From a virus, in IMG/VR virus record IMGVR_UViG_3300024307_000003, positions 1-64,000 of that record: a stretch of DNA of 64,000 bases; one strand, given 5' to 3'. The notes under the pieces were generated by a model that was not told the DNA's origin, did no database searches, and saw only the letters and a list, made by a program, of their open reading frames with translations. Both the position numbers and the translations under genes were made by a program. Below are positions 25,994-62,820 of the stretch, one piece after another; positions within the stretch are counted from its first letter, which is position 1, and every line of letters begins with the position of its first letter.

Positions 25994-26085
25994 GGACGTA
26001 ATACAGGTATTGGCTTTCCTGTGCCCAACTCATAATTGGTTCTCTAATTGCTAGAGTCTCGGTTCGATTCCGAGTGCGTCCACCA
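25994..26085 (+). tRNA. tRNA with CAT anticodon (Met/Ile2) and long variable arm
   Basis: Acceptor GGACGTA/TGCGTCC+ACCA; anticodon arm CCAA-CTCATAA-TTGG; variable stem CTCTA/TAGAG; T arm CTCGG-TTCGATT-CCGAG. Confidence 0.8.
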
Positions 26086-26689: not shown

Positions 26690-26768
26690 GGGGTTGTATC
26701 ACAACGAGCTTCTACCTCGTAGACGTGTAATTGGATCAATGGGTGTTCGAGTCACCCCAACCCCGCCA
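26690..26768 (+). tRNA. atypical D-armless tRNA-Arg(TCT)-like RNA
   Basis: GGGGTTG/CAACCCC+GCCA; ACGAG-CTTCTAC-CTCGT; T arm GGGTG-TTCGAGT-CACCC; only 7 nt where the D arm should be. Confidence 0.7.
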
Positions 26769-55119: not shown

Positions 55120-57444
55120 TCTCTGTGATGTAAAAATCCACTAATATTTGTAAATTGATTTTGAACTGGTGCCTGTACAGATGCTGACATGGCTCCGGCT
55201 AATCCTTTAATGTCCACTACTTGTTCTCTAGCGAGGAAATTGAAACACGATGCTGAGCTATCCGCCCAATCAATTTTTACCCGCGCTGTAGCTTCTTGAC
55301 CAACAAACTGCTCTAATTCCTTTAAGAAGGCTTCAAGAGATGCTTGGTTTTTGAAAGAGGACTTTACAATCCTCACCAGTCCATTCATACATGCAGCAGA
55401 AAATGGTTCAAAACGTGTAAGCTTGCTTTTATTTCCCGGCATAGGATCAGCTCTTACAACAAAACCTTTCTCTATAAGTTTTTTTGCGGACTCAAGAAAC
55501 TCTGTATCTCCTGCTTGAGCAGGATCGCGGCTGAACACAACGGAACACTCAGGCCCATCTGACTCGGCCTGTTTTTGTATCAGAAGATCACGTTCACCCG
55601 GAAGCCTTCTGAACTTACCAAAAATACCCGTATCTGCGTCTGTACATTCAGGATGATGATTACCCATCAAATAATAATATCCATCTTTATCTTTAGCCAT
55701 ATGCGTTGAGGCTGTGTAGTCTGGATACTTATTAATGTCTGTCGGAACTGAAGAGGCTTTATCCCATGCTCTTGCATGTTTAGCGTTTGCTGGTACTTTA
55801 TCTACTACAGTCAACCAATCCCTATTGAAATAACTTCCTTCGTTAAGGACGTATTTCCAACACCCATCTAACAATGCAGCTTTCTCTGCTTTAGTGTTAG
55901 CATCAAGAACGTCTGCGTATTCGGGGTTGTTGTCCAACAACTTTTGGTTGTCGGTCAGCTTGGAAGGTATGAAGGTGTAGGTAAGAGGATTCTTACCGGG
56001 GAAGTTAGTGCGGAGTTCTTCTTCACTCCAAGAAGTGAAGAGATTTCCTTCGAAGAATATGAAGTAGCGTATTTTTCCAGACAATTCCAGAATTGCATAA
56101 CCATCTTCATCAAGCCAAGGTTCTATCCATTCCTTAATCCAGCAATCAGGTTCAGGGTTACAACTCACCCGAACAAAAGACCTATGTACGGAAGCAGAAC
56201 GTGTTCTTGTTCTAACATAATTGAAATGATCGAACTTGAACTGTGTTCCTTCATCGAAATATATACCTGTATACTGAGCACCTTGATAAGTCTTCTTGTG
56301 CTTATCTAATTCGAGATAAGAAAATTTACAGCTTGCTCCTGAAGGGAATATAATTCTATGGTCTTTCTCTTTTATTCTAGCCTTACCTTTAAACTTACCA
56401 GTAAGGGGTCCAGAAGTATGAACAAGGAAGGGAAGATAAAGCTCCTGAGCTTCTGGCCATAAAGATTCATCCAGCTGTGTTGTGTTCTGTCGAAAATAGA
56501 TAGCTTTGTATTTAGGATCATCTATATACTTCAAGCTATCCATGAGAAGGGCGTAGCTCTTGCCGCCGCCTGCTGCCTATTTGTTTCTCAAGTCTCCTTG
56601 AGGATCGGACTATATCTTCACCCTTTTAGGGGCACCTTGTTTCGGGCTGTAATTACAGCCCTACTCTACTCCCTTCCAGCTATGCCGTGGTTTCGATAGT
56701 CTCTGAACGTAGTTCTTTTGTCAGGTCGCATAACTTCCTGCCAGTAAGAAGTTCACCAATATAGTCTTGTCTGCAATGTAGCCCAAAGTAATTCTTTATT
56801 TCTTTGTAGCTTTTACCTTGTCTGTGCATAACGAATATTGATGTTATCTCATCCATTGATAGGTGAGAAAAGGTCTTACCTTTTGTTTTTATATTTCCAG
56901 TTCTTACAGCGTGACGCACATTCTCATAACCGCTAACATATTCTAAATTTTCGAGCCTGTTGTTGAGTTTTATGCCGTCTTTATGGTTTACTTGGTGCTT
57001 ACCTTCTGGTTTTAATATAAATGTTTCAGCAATTAGAATATGCGTCCGTACAGAACGTCTTTTATTGCCATCTACAAGTATAATTTCTTCGTATCCGTCC
57101 CATGTAATTTTACCTTTAAGACGGGCACACCTTTTTCCTTGAATAAAACCTTCACTATCTGCAAAATAACCGGGAAAATTAAAAATCTCTTTCTTCAAAA
57201 GAACCTCCGCTGCTGATTGTCTAATCTTATTTGTTTTCATACCTTCACGCTCTATGTTACCATACACGTTGTGGTCAAACAAGCTTTAAAGAGTTTCCAG
57301 CAATTAAAGGTGTTTATTTTGACGCATTACTGCGAAAGGTGGCACATTTCTACCACCGTAAAATACTAAATGAATCTCGGTAGGAACATTTATGAAAGCC
57401 GATTGTGGACCGCGCTGTGGTTGTACAATATAGTATTCACTCAT
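55116..57444 (-). CDS. terL: terminase large subunit, two exons (57444-57352 and 56576-55116)
   Basis: Splicing yields PQRGPQSAF...VFYGG|AAGGGKS Walker A; Walker B IYFDE; SCNP; RAWDKA nuclease motif. Confidence 0.93.
56577..57351 (-). mobile_element. group I (IA-type) self-splicing intron in terL
   Basis: P1 GGTGGT/GCCACC with U-G; P AATTGCTGGAAA, Q AATCAGCAG, R TCAGAGACTA, S AAGATATAGTCC; terminal G at 56577. Confidence 0.93.
56680..57198 (-). CDS. intron-encoded HNH homing endonuclease
   Basis: HILIAETFI...QVNHKDGIKLNNRLENLEYV...EN.RHA; probable TTG start after GGAGG (alternative ATG at 57240). Confidence 0.88.
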   Translation of the reverse strand: MKKEIFNFPGYFADSEGFIQGKRCARLKGKITWDGYEEIILVDGNKRRSVRTHILIAETFILKPEGKHQVNHKDGIKLNNRLENLEYVSGYENVRHAVRTGNIKTKGKTFSHLSMDEITSIFVMHRQGKSYKEIKNYFGLHCRQDYIGELLTGRKLCDLTKELRSETIETTA

Positions 57445-58944: not shown

Positions 58945-59913
58945 TTAAATTCCTATACACATAACCGAATACTGGCCTTTAGCCTCTGCTTCGGAATAGA
59001 GGGTTATTGTGAAACCTGTTCCAGCAACAATGTCGCTTACAACAGGTCTGATATTCAGAAGATACATTTCGTCTGGATCAACTCCGGAGGGGGTTAGAAC
59101 ATTACAAACAACTTCGCTGCTAACACCTACCCAAGATTGTCCTGTTACTATTGTCTGCGCTTTGTCCGTAAAGGAACTACCAAAATCACATACAACGTTT
59201 ACACTACTACCACTTACACCAGCTGGACCAGTAGCGCCCGTAGCGCCTGTTGCACCAGTCTCTCCTTGTATCCCCTGAACGCCTTGAATGCCCTGAATAC
59301 CTTGTATTCCCTGCGGACCCTGTAAAGAAGATAATGTTACGATGTTGGTCCACGAAACATCTCCGACATAACGCCACTGAATGTATGTACCATTACTTTG
59401 AAGCTCTACTTCTCTACCATCAACTCCATTTGTACCTGCCGGACCTTGTATTCCTTGAGCACCAGAAGGCCCTTGAGGGCCAACTTCGCCTTGTATACCT
59501 TGGGGTCCGGTGTTACCCTGAATCCCTTGTGAACCTTGCGGTCCTACTTCTCCCTGTATTCCCTGTATTCCTTGTGGGCCTGTAATCTCTGAAAGAAGAA
59601 TTAAGTTTGTCCAGCTAACATCCCCAACATATCTCCACTGGACGTGTGTAGCAGACTTTTGTAATTCAACTTCCCTTCCATCTACTCCATCACTTCCGTC
59701 AACCCCTGCTGCGCCTGTATCTCCTGTTGGTCCAACCGAACCTGTGGGACCAGTGGCTCCAGTAGGGCCTATAGGCCCTCTTATACCTTGTTGGATGGAG
59801 GAGACAACACCTCCAGCGTCAACTCCAAAGGAGAGTGTCCCACTATCCCCTTCCTCAAGAAACACTTTCGTGTCAATTGGAGACGATTGGAGAATCTTTG
59901 TGACAATACTCAC
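58945..59913 (-). CDS. collagen-like fibre protein
   Basis: Gly-X-Y runs interrupted by two DGREVELQ...QWRYVGDVSWTN modules. Confidence 0.88.
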   Translation of the reverse strand: MSIVTKILQSSPIDTKVFLEEGDSGTLSFGVDAGGVVSSIQQGIRGPIGPTGATGPTGSVGPTGDTGAAGVDGSDGVDGREVELQKSATHVQWRYVGDVSWTNLILLSEITGPQGIQGIQGEVGPQGSQGIQGNTGPQGIQGEVGPQGPSGAQGIQGPAGTNGVDGREVELQSNGTYIQWRYVGDVSWTNIVTLSSLQGPQGIQGIQGIQGVQGIQGETGATGATGATGPAGVSGSSVNVVCDFGSSFTDKAQTIVTGQSWVGVSSEVVCNVLTPSGVDPDEMYLLNIRPVVSDIVAGTGFTITLYSEAEAKGQYSVMCIGI

Positions 59914-60221
59914 TGTGTAACACTCCGAAGAACATTGATTTCAAATGTCTCTGTGTATACGACTTCTGTAGAGGGGAGGGTGTAACGAATGTCACAATAG
60001 AGAATACATATGGGCCAATCATCTGTAGAGCTGTCTGAGAGAGTGAAAATCCCGTTAACGTTGTCTGTACGTGTGACAGTTAATTGTGAAACAAGTTTGT
60101 TACTCTTGTCTCTAATTTGTGCTGCAATTGTCCAGCTTGCAAAATCGGATGGAACTACTCCATCGGATTTAACGGATATATCACGGGAGAAGGTGGCTCC
60201 ACGTTTGTGTGAAATCTGCAT
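59910..60221 (-). CDS. BppU/LtfC-like fibre adaptor
   Basis: KRGATF...IAAQIRD...YCDI...TETFEINV..SVT. Confidence 0.7.
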   Translation of the reverse strand: MQISHKRGATFSRDISVKSDGVVPSDFASWTIAAQIRDKSNKLVSQLTVTRTDNVNGIFTLSDSSTDDWPICILYCDIRYTLPSTEVVYTETFEINVLRSVTQ

Positions 60222-60231
60222 GTTCTCTCCG

Positions 60232-60262
60232 AAAGAAAAAAGAAGAGCTACATTTGCAGCTC
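60232..60262 (-). terminator. intrinsic terminator just upstream of the first late gene
   Basis: AGAGCTGCA-AA-TGTAGCTCT-TCTTTTTTCTTT. Confidence 0.65.
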
Positions 60263-60282
60263 TGAGGTAGGAGAGCTAATCT
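60254..60282 (+). promoter_or_regulatory. candidate plus-strand promoter for the ncRNA block
   Basis: TTGCAG-17-TAATCT (same -10 as at 14206), with TAGGAGA/TCTCCTA inverted repeat over the -10. Confidence 0.5.
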
Positions 60283-60288
60283 CCTATG

Positions 60289-60810
60289 AGGAGAAAGCTT
60301 ATCGTTCTTGTTATTGTTCAATGCTTTCTTCGAAACAAAGAAAAGCCCGCAACTAGAAATCTCTAGGCGGGCTGAAGGCTCTATAACGAGCACCAATAAA
60401 AACGGATACGTTAATGTTGGCTATGTCTGCACGGCTGGCACGGCTGTGCTTGTTGTTATTTCCCAAGAGGAGGGCAATGAAATAGTTGTGGGTAGTCAGG
60501 CCGAACTTCATTTCTGACTCCTGCGACGTTAAGGGTCTGCTTGCAGGCTTTCTCCCTTCGCTTCTACGTGTGGTATCGGATCACCAATTTTACCCACACA
60601 AATACATTCTCCTAACTAGTATTCAGCCGCTAGGAACCTCCCGGCAACTGTGGAAAATGTATTTATATAGGCACTAGATTTACCAACATGCTCTTCGTGG
60701 AAACCCACTGTAATATATCCTATGATCTACTCTGTTCTTTCACCAACCACAAAAGTTAACGAACTACTGAGAGTTAGGATATATTACGGTGAGGGCCTGT
60801 TGATTTCCCT
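60289..60810 (+). ncRNA. large multi-domain structured RNA (or tandem small RNAs), unassigned
   Basis: Successive helical domains 60290-60331, 60383-60456, 60487-60598, 60600-60664 and 60684-60802; G-U pairs favour the plus strand. Confidence 0.6.
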
Positions 60811-60829
60811 GTTATCAGGCTCAGGGAAG

Positions 60830-61024
60830 ATGCTGGAGGAAATACAGCAAGCATCTCAATTCACTGAATATCTGGATTCTTCCAGTTTAACATTTATTGA
60901 TTATGCAGAGTTATACGCTGCAAATAACAATTCTTATAAACCAGAGGATTTTCTTTCCAACCCCTTGTTGGAAAGCTTATTCCTCACAACCGCAAGGATT
61001 TCTAATTTGTGCAGAACTGGATAA
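60830..61024 (+). CDS. possible small acidic protein inside the RNA island
   Basis: MLEEIQQASQFTEYLD...; AGGGAAG SD; same strand as the flanking structured elements. Confidence 0.4.
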   Translation: MLEEIQQASQFTEYLDSSSLTFIDYAELYAANNNSYKPEDFLSNPLLESLFLTTARISNLCRTG

Positions 61025-61066
61025 CAATCTTTTTTCTCTTGACACGCCATCAATATTTCTATTCAT

Positions 61067-61283
61067 TTCGTGGAATCGGGATTGCTATCTCATTCTCTGT
61101 CGGCTTTCCTGCTCTTCCAACATCATCTTAGGCGCGACCTAAGCACCATCGAATTTACGTTAGGCGTTGTTGTGTTTCAGCAAGCCTAGTCCCGGCAGGC
61201 CACGCGCATAGCGTCCGGTCTTCTCTACTATCATTGATCACTGCATCAACACAAAGCTGTGATTTTCGAGTAGTCTCTACGTA
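61067..61283 (+). ncRNA. ~215-nt structured RNA, unassigned
   Basis: Closing helix CGTG..GGGATTGCT/AGTAGTCTC.TACG with G-U pairs; several hairpins; TTGACA at 61039. Confidence 0.55.
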
Positions 61284-61356
61284 AAACTTTTAATATTCTG
61301 GTGGCGTTTTATGACGCGAATATCAGCAGACGCTGCCCGTCGCACGGGGCCATAAT

Positions 61357-61431
61357 TGGTGTTCGTGCAGAGAATTGAACTCTGATTAACAGGTTGAAAA
61401 CCTGCTGTCCTCACCATTGGACGACACGAAC
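61357..61431 (-). tRNA. tRNA-Glu(TTC)
   Basis: Cloverleaf; GCAGG-TTTTCAA-CCTGT; CCA. Confidence 0.92.
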
Positions 61432-61437
61432 AATATT

Positions 61438-61511
61438 TGGAGCGGGAAGAGGGGTTCGAACCCTCGCTATCAACTTGGAAGGATGAAGTGCTACCATTAC
61501 ACCATTCCCGC
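61438..61511 (-). tRNA. tRNA-Gly(TCC)
   Basis: Cloverleaf; anticodon loop CTTCCAA; U73; CCA. Confidence 0.93.
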
Positions 61512-61516
61512 AAATT

Positions 61517-61592
61517 TGGTGCTGCCATCAGGACTCGAACCTGAAACCTACCGCTTACGAAACGGTTGCTCTACCAGTTGAGCTACAGCAGC
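61517..61592 (-). tRNA. tRNA-Thr(CGT)
   Basis: ACCGT-TTCGTAA-GCGGT; CCA. Confidence 0.92.
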
Positions 61593-61600
61593 ATACTTCG

Positions 61601-61726
61601 TGGGGGAGGCTGGAGTCGAACCAGCAAGCCAGATAAACTACTCACAAGGCTTAAAGCCGGCTGCCTTGTTTTCACTCACGAGACTACCCCTCTCTGGGGC
61701 TGCGTATCCCATTCCGCCACTCCCCC
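61601..61726 (-). ncRNA. 126-nt tRNA-like RNA with expanded anticodon domain
   Basis: GGGGGAG/CTCCCCC acceptor; D arm GCG-GAATGGGATA-CGC; T arm GCTGG-TTCGACT-CCAGC; ~75 nt between the D and T arms. Confidence 0.75.
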
Positions 61727-61732
61727 GTAATT

Positions 61733-61809
61733 TGGTCGGAGATACAGGATTTGAACCTGTGACATTTTGCTCCCAAAGCAAACGCGCTACCAGACTGCGC
61801 TAATCTCCA
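61733..61809 (-). tRNA. tRNA-Pro(TGG)
   Basis: TTTGC-TTTGGGA-GCAAA; CCA. Confidence 0.93.
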
Positions 61810-61820
61810 ATAAACGATCC

Positions 61821-62127
61821 GGACACCACTTGGAAACAACAACGTTGTCCCTCGGCCCGCCTTGGCGCGAGCACAGGGAAGAGTATGAATCCTCCCTGCT
61901 GGGTAGCGCTCGATCTCATCCGGTGTTCCCTTTTCAGGGAGTCGCTACGTTCGTGTGTCCAGAAGGGGAGGAACTATGTTCCCACGAATCTTCTGGCACG
62001 CAATTGATTAATCTTAAAATGTGCCTACCCGAAGTTACCTTCCGTCTGCAAGCAACAAACTCCCTTGTCAGTTCAAGGGAAGGTAGGGCTTAAGTCATCA
62101 CCGGTATGGAGGCCGGGAGAGGTGTCC
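61821..62127 (-). ncRNA. ~307-nt pseudoknotted RNA at the head of the tRNA operon, unassigned
   Basis: Terminal helix GGACACC/GGTGTCC; 8 or more internal stems; two pseudoknots; G-U pairs favour the minus strand. Confidence 0.7.
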
Positions 62128-62174
62128 TCAGAAGATGGAACACATAATTAACAAACTTCCCTATTTGTATTTAC

Positions 62175-62203
62175 ATCCTAGCAGATTATTTTCTGTTTGT
62201 CAA
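62175..62203 (-). promoter_or_regulatory. sigma70 promoter of the ncRNA/tRNA operon
   Basis: TTGACA-17-TAGGAT with extended TG. Confidence 0.8.
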
Positions 62204-62219
62204 CACCCAATCTGAAATT

Positions 62220-62525
62220 TTATACAGCTACAGGGAAGCGTCTGAATTCGGCTACAACACCTTTCCCAACTTCCTGCTTACGCTCTTCTTCCCTGTTGGC
62301 AGGTTCGCCCATAAGCTTCTCAGCAGCTTGGGCGTACAGCCAATGCAGCTTCAGGATTTTATCCAGAATCCCAGCACGAGTAGCAGGATTAACCGCAGGA
62401 TCAAACGCCAGCTTCGACATGGCCTCGTAGGCAGGAACTGCGTCTTTGTTCACCAGATCCTGAAGCTCTGTGATATTGTCAAATGTCTTCTTGGCTGCTC
62501 TTACATTCTTGGATACATTAGCCAT
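62220..62525 (-). CDS. hypothetical helical protein (possible terminase small subunit)
   Basis: 101 aa with GAGGA SD; upstream of terL; function inferred from position only. Confidence 0.45.
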   Translation of the reverse strand: MANVSKNVRAAKKTFDNITELQDLVNKDAVPAYEAMSKLAFDPAVNPATRAGILDKILKLHWLYAQAAEKLMGEPANREEERKQEVGKGVVAEFRRFPVAV

Positions 62526-62820
62526 CTAATTCTTCTTCCTCTCCTGAATCTCTTAGGGCTTGTAGAACATTTTCTAATAGCTCTATCAACACCCATGTAT
62601 CTTGTGTATTGCTTTGGATCAGTTTGTAATTGCTATCATCTTGTAACACTGTAAGTCCTACAGTGGGTTTGAAGTCGTATTCGTTCCCCTCCTCGTCTCG
62701 GAGGTAGATAGCGTTCTCTTCAAGGGCTACTACTAAACTAGCTAGGTTGTTTAGGATGTTCTCTATCTCATCGGCAACAGGAGGAGAGGAACGTTTGAAC
62801 TCAAGAATCTTTCCAGACAT
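62518..62820 (-). CDS. hypothetical acidic protein
   Basis: 100 aa with GAGGA SD. Confidence 0.75.
   Translation of the reverse strand: MSGKILEFKRSSPPVADEIENILNNLASLVVALEENAIYLRDEEGNEYDFKPTVGLTVLQDDSNYKLIQSNTQDTWVLIELLENVLQALRDSGEEEELDG

What the first reader, a model, noticed from the sequence alone, without database searches (positions are those of the whole stretch)
60289..60810. ~520-nt ornate ncRNA block on the strand opposite the late and tRNA operons
Seen: no credible long CDS, but an unbroken chain of helical domains. These are GGAGAAAGC/GCTTTCTTC (60290-60331); ATAACGAGCAC/GTGCTTGTTGT (60383-60456); a multibranch domain closed by TGTGGGTA/TACCCACA (60487-60598) with candidate loop pairings CCGA/TCGG and AAGGG/CCCTT; AAATACATT.TCC/GGA.AATGTATTT (60600-60664); and a long rod (60684-60802) with a 17-bp helix. 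Nearly all non-Watson-Crick pairs are G-U on the plus strand and would be A-C on the minus strand. A TTGCAG-17-TAATCT promoter sits just before the first helix. Known: large ornate RNAs such as GOLLD and ROOL occur beside phage tRNA clusters. Inference: this is one large, or several tandem, phage ncRNAs that I cannot assign to a known family.
Basis: partly seen in the sequence, partly recalled or inferred. Interest (0 to 1): 0.88.

Follow-up and report, generated by a model that had tools for sequence, protein, structure and literature searches.

The report
Folded tail of phage tRNA operon
The flagged stretch does hold unusually stable RNA hairpins, but the only one that reveals its strand lies on the same strand as the neighbouring phage tRNA genes, and the stretch also holds a terminator and a possible small gene, so it looks like the unexplained folded tail of a tRNA operon, not one new giant RNA on the opposite strand.

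Summary
The helices are real. Window 60289-60810 folds far better than shuffles on both strands (z -4.8 plus, -5.4 to -6.1 minus), and no Rfam family matches.

The reading as one plus-strand ornate RNA with no CDS does not hold:
- G-U pairs do not favour the plus strand (18 plus, 21 minus).
- The one element that clearly discriminates strand is an 87-nt hairpin at 60675-60589. It forms only on the minus strand (-40.1 vs -17.6 kcal/mol). It is both the most stable and the most strand-asymmetric 90-nt window in the 93.7-kb genome.
- A textbook minus-strand intrinsic terminator (60373-60333) cuts the block in two.
- A 52-codon minus-strand ORF with AGGAG-6-ATG fills 60511-60353.
- The proposed multibranch domain is no better than shuffles.
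- The proposed promoter matches only 6 of 12 consensus positions.

Best reading: the block is the distal end of a roughly 1.85-kb minus-strand unit. That unit runs from a sigma-70-like promoter through a folded leader, four tRNAs plus a tRNA-like element and a 1-kb folded trailer to the terminator. The leader of the virion-gene operon follows.

Covariation and expression could not be tested, because no DNA of relatives was reachable. The scan's other first-stage notes flagged the same island in this genome. No look-alike of it was noted on other DNA.

The parts
62175..62203 (-). Sigma-70-like promoter TTGACA-17-TAGGAT with a TG extension. Presumed start of the RNA island transcript.
   Evidence: 10 of 12 consensus positions. 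It lies just downstream of the 101-aa gene that ends at 62220.
61810..62168 (-). Folded leader of about 360 nt, 5' of tRNA-Pro.
   Evidence: 61821-61910 on the minus strand is the second most stable 90-nt window in the genome (-39.2 kcal/mol); the minus strand is favoured.
61357..61809 (-). tRNA-Pro, a 126-nt tRNA-like element (61601-61726), then tRNA-Thr, tRNA-Gly and tRNA-Glu.
   Evidence: four tRNAs at 64-68 bits. T-loop motif at 61613-61621.
60811..61356 (-). Proximal part of the folded trailer. It contains a plus-strand ORF (60830-61024) that gene callers predict, and a hairpin domain (61020-61089) that is absent in near relatives.
   Evidence: 61010-61095: minus z -4.7 vs plus -1.7. P0005-P0007.
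60700..60796 (.). Long rod hairpin, 17 bp on plus or 5+13+5+10 bp on minus. The strand cannot be told from energy.
   Evidence: minus -32.7 kcal/mol, z -4.4; plus -31.6, z -5.4; the signal is almost all Watson-Crick.
60589..60675 (-). 87-nt hairpin (22 bp, asymmetric internal loop, 7 bp, 4 bp). It forms only on the minus strand.
   Evidence: -40.1 kcal/mol, z -6.85, 0 of 200 shuffles as good; plus -17.6, z -2.1. G-U gain -21.5, z -5.0; the most stable and the most strand-asymmetric of 9,360 windows.
60353..60523 (-). Candidate 52-codon ORF (60511-60353) with Shine-Dalgarno AGGAG (60522-60518), a 6-nt spacer and ATG. Its stop codon lies inside the terminator hairpin.
   Evidence: an ORF of this quality occurs in 1.8-4.6% of shuffles; the minus-strand RNA here folds no better than shuffles (z +0.5 over 60380-60560, +0.7 over 60462-60590); called as a gene by Logan and ENA (P0010), singleton cluster.
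60333..60373 (-). Intrinsic terminator T1: AGCCCGC..GCGGGCU enclosing CUAGA/UCUAG, followed by UUUUCUUUGUUU.
   Evidence: -18.0 kcal/mol, z -3.9. The U-tract follows the hairpin only on the minus strand.
60264..60332 (-). Spacer between the two terminators, with short and partly exclusive hairpins.
   Evidence: 60222-60345 gives minus z -3.1 vs plus -0.7.
60231..60263 (-). Second terminator-like hairpin T2 (AGAGCUGC/GUAGCUCU) plus UCUUUUUUCUUUC. It ends immediately before the Shine-Dalgarno GGAG (60230-60227) of the first virion-operon gene (ATG at 60221).
   Evidence: listed by the scan.: -11.6 kcal/mol, z -2.8.

Best explanation
The 522-nt block is a composite, not one molecule. It is the promoter-distal end of a roughly 1.85-kb, almost protein-free transcription unit on the minus strand, followed by the start of the virion-gene leader.

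Proposed unit, 5' to 3' on the minus strand:
- a sigma-70-type promoter at 62203-62175;
- a folded leader of about 360 nt;
- tRNA-Pro, a tRNA-like element, then tRNA-Thr, tRNA-Gly and tRNA-Glu;
- a folded trailer of about 1 kb;
- the intrinsic terminator T1 at 60373-60333.

Within the flagged block the trailer contributes two long hairpin rods (60796-60700 and 60675-60589). A weakly folded stretch follows that probably encodes a 52-aa peptide (60511-60353), and then T1. The remaining 60332-60289 lies beyond T1, in the short spacer before a second terminator-like hairpin (T2) and the ribosome-binding site of the first virion gene.

Inferred mechanism:
- Host RNA polymerase transcribes the unit.
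- The tRNA-processing nucleases release the tRNAs.
- The long hairpins survive as stable RNAs, or serve as double-strand-specific processing or protective stems.
- T1 and T2 keep this transcription out of the virion operon unless termination is overridden.

Shown: the structures, their strand bias, and the promoter, terminator and Shine-Dalgarno motifs. Inferred: transcription, processing and any function.
For: - The 87-nt hairpin at 60675-60589 is minus-specific. It gives -40.1 kcal/mol, z -6.85, against -17.6, z -2.1 on plus. Its G-U contribution is -21.5 kcal/mol, z -5.0, against 0 on plus.
- Genome-wide it ranks first of 9,360 windows for stability and for strand asymmetry. The runner-up for stability is also minus-strand and inside the same island, at 61821-61910.
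- T1 is a -18 kcal/mol GC hairpin followed by a U-tract only on the minus strand. T2 is listed by the terminator scan on the minus strand.
- The only strong promoter-like sites, with 10-11 of 12 matches plus TG, are on the minus strand at 62203-62175 and 63093-63065.
- All tRNAs and all flanking genes are on the minus strand.
- Over the whole 60335-61356 stretch the minus strand folds 8 kcal/mol better.
- The best SD+ATG ORF in the island is on the minus strand and ends in T1. The minus-strand RNA is unstructured exactly there.
- In near relatives, one inferred change (G60791A) keeps a pair only on the minus strand (C-G to U-G). Most other inferred changes fall in predicted loops or linkers.
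- L001, the only more distant relative with the same gene order, also has at least 449 nt of folded non-coding sequence upstream of the homologous genes. It folds better on the gene strand (-144.2, z -3.5, vs -132.2, z -3.0).
Against: - No transcript data and no covariation are available.
- Some sub-domains lean to the plus strand: 60380-60560 (z -2.4 vs +0.5), 60376-60462 (z -3.4 vs -2.0, with a hairpin plus U-rich tail on plus) and 61150-61290.
- The rod at 60700-60796 gives no strand call.
- Two terminators directly in front of the virion operon leave no obvious room for a late promoter, so the transcription map is incomplete.
- The 52-aa ORF has no detectable homologue. An ORF of this quality arises in 2-5% of shuffles.
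Confidence: 0.55

Rival explanations
1. The whole 1-kb trailer, or the whole island with its 5' domain, embedded tRNAs and 3' domain, is one new large ornate RNA on the minus strand. It would be analogous to GOLLD or ROOL and have a higher-order fold of its own.
For: - About 1.4 kb of ORF-poor, significantly folded sequence flanks a phage tRNA cluster.
- GOLLD and ROOL sit near phage tRNA islands, and tRNAs can lie in the GOLLD linker (bioRxiv 10.1101/2024.12.08.627333).
- ICP1 has an abundant ncRNA of about 800 nt in a 1-kb ORF-less gap (PMC7567579).
Against: - No match to any Rfam model, ROOL and GOLLD included, at E<=10.
- The significant signal sits in a few simple long hairpins. The multibranch parts are no better than shuffles.
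- A plausible ORF and indels of whole hairpins interrupt the stretch.
- There are no homologues to show conservation.
Confidence: 0.13
2. One reading: one or several plus-strand ncRNAs, antisense to the tRNA and late-gene direction, starting near 60289.
For: - Plus-strand z is -4.8 for the block.
- 60289-60438 and 60376-60462 fold somewhat better on the plus strand (z -3.6 and -3.4).
- A hairpin with a U-rich tail lies on the plus strand at 60429-60461.
- A plus ORF at 60830-61024 is called in relatives.
Against: - The strand argument fails.
- The dominant hairpin is minus-only.
- The proposed promoter matches 6 of 12 positions, and no plus-strand promoter-like site was listed in 59800-60690.
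- The multibranch core is not significant.
Confidence: 0.1
3. A convergent sense/antisense pair. The minus-strand 52-aa ORF mRNA would be overlapped at its 3' end by a plus-strand RNA of about 170 nt (60289-60461). This resembles 3'-overlapping type I toxin-antitoxin or antisense-regulated small genes found in prophages.
For: - The plus strand is structured exactly where the minus strand is coding-like and unstructured.
- The plus-strand terminator-like hairpin at 60429-60449 with TTGTTGTTATTT, and the minus-strand T1, face each other.
- The ORF has a consensus Shine-Dalgarno sequence.
Against: - The plus promoter is weak.
- The peptide is basic and lacks a clear 19-20-residue hydrophobic helix (sequence).
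- The plus-strand preference of z about -2.4 does not survive correction for about 20 domain-by-strand tests.
- No family match.
Confidence: 0.1
4. No dedicated RNA function. The helices would be DNA-level inverted repeats, such as protein-binding or recombination sites, or remnants of decayed genes or small inserted elements.
For: - Most of the excess stability is Watson-Crick: z without G-U is -3.8 and -4.2 for the block.
- The rod at 60700-60796 is strand-neutral.
- A whole hairpin (61020-61089) is present or absent between near relatives, like a small insertion.
- An HNH endonuclease gene lies nearby.
Against: - The top hairpin gains 21.5 kcal/mol from G-U pairs on one strand only (z -5.0). 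A DNA palindrome would not show this.
- The terminator and Shine-Dalgarno motifs are strand-specific.
- No direct repeats or iterons.
- No protein similarity in the called ORFs that were scanned.
Confidence: 0.1

Closest known systems
GOLLD and ROOL large ornate RNAs of phages and prophages
   Same: Large ORF-poor folded sequence next to or around a phage tRNA island. tRNAs are sometimes embedded between a 5' and a 3' domain in GOLLD.
   Different: No match to either covariance model. The structure here is dominated by a few long simple hairpins. There is no evidence for conserved pseudoknots or multimer contacts. The stretch contains a terminator and a likely small ORF.
Small stable RNAs co-transcribed with the tRNA cluster of phage T4 (species 1 and 2, rnaC/rnaD). 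Recalled from my own knowledge; no paper could be retrieved.
   Same: Non-tRNA folded RNAs in the same transcription unit as phage tRNAs, presumably released by the tRNA-processing machinery. Function unknown.
   Different: No sequence relationship was tested or expected. The trailer here is about 1 kb, not about 140 nt. Processing has not been shown.
Terminated late-operon leader of lambdoid phages (pR'-tR' '6S' transcript, read through by Q). tRNA genes lie in this leader in some Stx phages. Recalled from my own knowledge.
   Same: A consensus promoter and a non-coding, tRNA-containing transcript end at terminators directly upstream of the virion or late genes.
   Different: No Q-like antiterminator or qut site was identified. 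The leader here is about 1.85 kb, not about 0.2 kb. Read-through has not been shown.
HK022 put cis-acting antiterminator RNA. Recalled from my own knowledge.
   Same: Two adjacent stem-loops on the nascent transcript lie upstream of terminators that precede essential genes.
   Different: The hairpins here are 87-97 nt each and about 25 nt apart, with no sequence or model match. This is a resemblance of position only.

Membership tests
ROOL (Rfam RF03087) | Match to the 574-position covariance model at or above 99.1 bits | tested here: not met
   No match at E<=10 in the whole 93.7-kb record or in 59900-62300. The control genomes for one search also gave no match, so the more informative result is the cmscan.
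GOLLD (Rfam) | Match to the family covariance model, in particular its conserved 3' domain | tested here: not met
   A cmscan of all 4,227 Rfam 15 families gave only tRNAs, both at gathering score over the window and at E<=10 over 59900-62300.
GOLLD / ROOL | Location beside or around phage tRNA genes | tested here: met
   Four tRNAs lie at 61357-61809 on the minus strand, between two folded non-coding stretches.
Any structured ncRNA family | Covariation supporting the helices in homologues | not testable with these tools
   No homologous DNA was obtained.
Intrinsic (Rho-independent) terminator | GC-rich hairpin immediately followed by a U-tract on the transcribed strand | tested here: met
   T1 (60373-60333, minus): -18.0 kcal/mol, z -3.9, followed by UUUUCUUUGUUU. 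T2 (60263-60231, minus): listed, -11.6 kcal/mol.
Small protein-coding gene | Start codon with a Shine-Dalgarno sequence at 5-9 nt, an open frame, and homologues or coding-type conservation | tested here: inconclusive
   AGGAG-6-ATG and 52 codons arise in 1.8-4.6% of shuffles. The codon-usage score does not discriminate. No PHROG match; Pfam was not run on this ORF. The 90%-identity cluster is a singleton.
Type I toxin-antitoxin (3'-overlapping antisense) | Small hydrophobic membrane peptide plus a convergent antisense RNA with its own promoter | tested here: inconclusive
   The geometry fits. The peptide lacks a clear transmembrane helix, and the antisense promoter matches only 6 of 12 positions.

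The most novel reading that the evidence does not exclude
The 2-kb island (folded 5' domain, embedded tRNAs, 1-kb folded 3' domain) is a new class of giant phage RNA. It would be analogous to GOLLD but unrelated to it. The tRNAs would be carried within a larger RNA architecture, and the 87-nt and 97-nt rods would be its structural struts.
Probability: 0.12. Interest if true: 0.8.

Novelty: new member of a known kind. Interest (0 to 1): 0.4.

Why it matters
Phage tRNA islands often carry large RNAs of unknown function. GOLLD and ROOL were only recently shown to build RNA cages. An island with about 1.4 kb of unassigned folded RNA, holding the two most stable local structures of the genome, is a reasonable candidate for another such RNA. 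It could also be a regulated barrier between the tRNA unit and virion-gene transcription.

The evidence so far comes from one sequence. It shows a few strong hairpins, a terminator and a possible micro-gene, not an ornate conserved fold. The practical value of this report is the corrected strand and anatomy, which tell anyone following up where to place probes and primers.

Tried and rejected
SEARCHES FOR HOMOLOGOUS DNA (all failed or were uninformative)
- blastn against 50,697 phage records found no match.
- tblastn with the neighbouring 488-aa protein found no match among cultured phages.
- IMG/VR relatives found through the 488-aa protein (L001-L006, 46-71% identity) share no nucleotide similarity in the region. 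Searching their full records gave the same result.
- The 103-, 101- and 100-aa neighbouring proteins found nothing in IMG/VR, in JGI metagenomes or in GTDB genomes.
- An exact 24-mer found nothing in IMG/VR.
- A two-arm pattern in the metagenomes hit only an unrelated chance palindrome, L015.

CLOSE RELATIVES OUT OF REACH
- Relatives at 90-99% protein identity exist only in Logan assemblies (P0001, P0005-7, P0012-15).
No relative DNA, read mapping or expression test was therefore possible.

INDIRECT ROUTE THROUGH GENE CALLS IN RELATIVES
- I looked for spurious ORF calls in relatives, to read their sequence indirectly.
- This worked only for 60722-61189.
- Nothing was found for 60290-60674.
- One coordinate was mistyped by me and was corrected.

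OTHER IDEAS REJECTED
- A T4-type late promoter: TATAAATA inside the hairpin is not enriched in the window.
- Paralogous copies or antisense targets elsewhere in the genome: none beyond chance 13-15-mers.
- Iterons or tandem repeats: none.
- Codon-usage scoring of the small ORFs does not discriminate, because any stop-free frame scores like a gene.
- Similarity between the 52-aa ORF and a small ORF in L001: none.
- I queried RF01998 believing it was GOLLD. It is a group II intron model, so one search is irrelevant to GOLLD.
- The classical four-segment attenuator idea for 60264-60300 was dropped, because the MFE accommodates both the upstream hairpin and T2.

Full report
CONTEXT
The window is the first 64 kb of a 93,686-bp virus record with 41.6% GC. 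Its nearest cultured relatives share only a T4-type large terminase at about 42% identity. Virion genes run on the minus strand from about 26.8 kb to 60221. They include the portal, large terminase, an HNH endonuclease, a 488-aa protein, a collagen-like protein and a 103-aa protein.

Upstream on the same strand, in order, lie:
- 1,135 nt with no long ORF (60222-61356);
- tRNA-Glu, tRNA-Gly, tRNA-Thr and tRNA-Pro (61357-61809);
- another 410 nt without ORFs;
- two small minus-strand genes (62220-62820).

The flagged block at 60289-60810 is therefore part of a roughly 2-kb RNA island. Other first-stage notes on this genome flagged the same island.

Yes as to structure. The block folds at -164.4 kcal/mol on the plus strand (z -4.79; none of 100 shuffles as good). 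A sliding 150-nt scan gives z of -3 to -5 across 60250-61150, against about 0 in the flanking coding sequence. Rfam 15 gives nothing but tRNAs, at gathering score over the window and at E<=10 over 59900-62300. ROOL was also searched alone, with no match.

STRAND
It fails:
- The minus strand folds at -167.0 kcal/mol (z -5.35).
- It has 21 G-U pairs against 18.
- With G-U forbidden the two strands are equal, at -132.8 and -132.7.

I then tested each domain on both strands against dinucleotide shuffles, separating Watson-Crick from G-U contributions.

Domain / plus strand / minus strand:
- 60589-60675: -17.6 kcal/mol, z -2.1 / -40.1 kcal/mol, z -6.85 (0 of 200 shuffles as good).
- 60700-60796 (rod): -31.6, z -5.4 / -32.7, z -4.4.
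- 60462-60590 (the multibranch core): z -0.50 / z +0.71.
- 60376-60462: z -3.4 / z -2.0.
- 60380-60560: z -2.4 / z +0.5.

The first domain stands out. On the minus strand it forms a 22+7+4-bp hairpin, and its G-U pairs contribute -21.5 kcal/mol (z -5.0), against nothing on plus. In a scan of all 9,360 overlapping 90-nt windows of the genome, this minus-strand window is both the most stable (-39.5 kcal/mol; genome mean -16.6, sd 5.7) and the most strand-asymmetric (21.9 kcal/mol; sd 5.6). The second most stable window is also minus-strand and also inside the island, at 61821-61910.

The rod is almost purely Watson-Crick, so it gives no strand call. The multibranch domain is not better than chance on either strand. 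Two sub-regions lean to the plus strand (60376-60462 and 60380-60560). That lean is modest and does not survive correction for about 20 domain-by-strand tests.

SIGNALS
On the minus strand there are four signals.
- Two strong sigma-70-like promoters: TTGACA-17-TAGGAT at 62203-62175 and TTGACA-17-TAAAAT at 63093-63065, both with TG.
- A canonical intrinsic terminator, T1, at 60373-60333 (-18.0 kcal/mol, followed by UUUUCUUUGUUU).
- A second hairpin with a U-run, T2, at 60263-60231.
- The Shine-Dalgarno GGAG and the ATG at 60221 of the first virion gene, directly after T2.

Promoter-like sites as a class are also no more frequent than in shuffles.

CODING POTENTIAL
The block is not free of credible ORFs. 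The best SD+ATG ORF in the whole island is on the minus strand, at 60511-60353. It has AGGAG, a 6-nt spacer, ATG and 52 codons, and its stop codon lies inside the T1 hairpin.
- An ORF of this quality arises in 4.6% of shuffles of the 2-kb island and in 1.8% of shuffles of 60222-61356.
- It coincides with the only part of the block where the minus-strand RNA is unstructured.
- Logan and ENA gene callers predict it (P0010), but it has no relatives at 90% identity and no PHROG match.

I rate it more likely real than not, but unproven.

A plus-strand ORF (60722 or 60830 to 61024) overlaps the end of the block and is also predicted in near relatives (P0005-P0007). Its 98% identity is unremarkable, because true genes of the same relatives are 95-99% identical (P0012, P0015).

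THE LITTLE COMPARATIVE INFORMATION AVAILABLE
From those predicted proteins I inferred a handful of substitutions in relatives across 60722-61189.
- Most fall in predicted loops or linkers: 60753, 60794, 60802-60803, 60815, 61133-61134 and 61146.
- G60791A converts a C-G pair to U-G on the minus strand, but to a C-A mismatch on the plus strand.
- T60932C is compatible with both strands.
- One whole hairpin (61020-61089) is missing in relatives, both arms together.

This is consistent with modular RNA hairpins on the minus strand, but it is far too thin to count as covariation. L001, the only IMG/VR relative with the same gene order, also carries at least 449 nt of folded non-coding sequence upstream of the homologous genes. 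That sequence folds better on the gene strand, but it has no sequence similarity to the window.

MOST LIKELY MECHANISM
The island is one minus-strand unit, probably read by host RNA polymerase from the promoter at 62203. tRNAs are excised by the usual nucleases. The flanking leader and trailer hairpins remain as stable RNAs, or act as processing or protective stems. A small peptide may be translated just before T1. T1 and T2 insulate the virion operon.

How the virion genes themselves are transcribed is unresolved. The two options are read-through by antitermination, or a non-consensus promoter between T1 and T2. The steps that are shown are the motifs, the structures and the strand bias. Transcription, processing and function are inferred.

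COMPARISON WITH KNOWN SYSTEMS
- In context it resembles GOLLD and ROOL and ICP1's long ncRNA. The tested membership criterion, a match to the covariance model, is not met.
- In operon logic it resembles the stable non-tRNA RNAs of the T4 tRNA cluster and the terminated late leaders of lambdoid phages. Both comparisons rest on my own knowledge, because no paper could be retrieved.

VERDICT
The structure is real, it is not in any curated family, and part of it is extreme for this genome. But it is a mosaic of two rods, a probable micro-gene, a terminator and a leader spacer on the tRNA strand. It is not a 520-nt ornate RNA on the opposite strand. Interest is moderate, because conservation and expression are untested for lack of reachable relatives.

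Noticed in passing
window 61601-61726 (minus): A 126-nt tRNA-like element lies between tRNA-Pro and tRNA-Thr. It has a 7-bp acceptor stem and a canonical T-loop (GTTCGACTC at 61613-61621). ARAGORN and the Rfam tRNA model do not call it; there is only a weak tRNA-Sec hit (19.4 bits, E 1.4).
   Followed up: partly
window 61810-62168 (minus): The leader between the promoter at 62203 and tRNA-Pro contains the second most stable 90-nt window of the genome (61821-61910, -39.2 kcal/mol on the minus strand). It is as unexplained as the trailer.
   Followed up: partly
window 61013-61093: Near relatives (P0005-P0007) carry about 21 nt in place of about 81 nt here. This removes both arms of the 10-bp helix 61020-61029 / 61080-61089 together. 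It is either a variable hairpin module or a small insertion.
   Followed up: partly
window 60222-60345 (minus): In the minus-strand fold the U-tract of T1 pairs with the Shine-Dalgarno region (CGGAGAGAA) of the first virion gene, and GAAGAAAG pairs with the U-tract of T2. Read-through transcripts might therefore have a sequestered ribosome-binding site (minus z -3.1, plus -0.7).
   Followed up: partly
window 60365-60378 and 61849-61862: A 14-nt complementarity (86%) links the T1 region and the leader 5' of tRNA-Pro. It could bring the two ends of the island transcript together, or it could be chance.
   Followed up: no
window 25994-26085 and 26745-26753 (plus): In a second tRNA area, ARAGORN calls a 92-nt tRNA-Met with its anticodon at position 38. 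A T-loop motif (GTTCGAGTC) follows tRNA-Leu with no tRNA call. These may be further non-canonical tRNA-like genes.
   Followed up: no
window 56680-57282 (minus): An HNH endonuclease gene (PHROG 59, E 3e-31) lies directly upstream of the large terminase gene, the usual partner arrangement for HNH-assisted packaging.
   Followed up: no
L001:300-400 (plus): The non-coding sequence upstream of the homologous gene block in the IMG/VR relative contains a T-arm-like GGTTCAAGTCC followed by ...TGGTGGCCA. ARAGORN calls no tRNA there. There is also a weak abiF-RNA hit (28.4 bits, E 0.37) at 287-354.
   Followed up: no
window 60640-60656 (minus), inside the 87-nt hairpin: The 11-nt internal loop AAUACUAGUUA contains the palindrome ACUAGU. 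The inner stem of T1 is built from CUAGA/UCUAG. The shared CUAG motifs could allow loop-loop or loop-terminator contacts. This is speculative.
   Followed up: no
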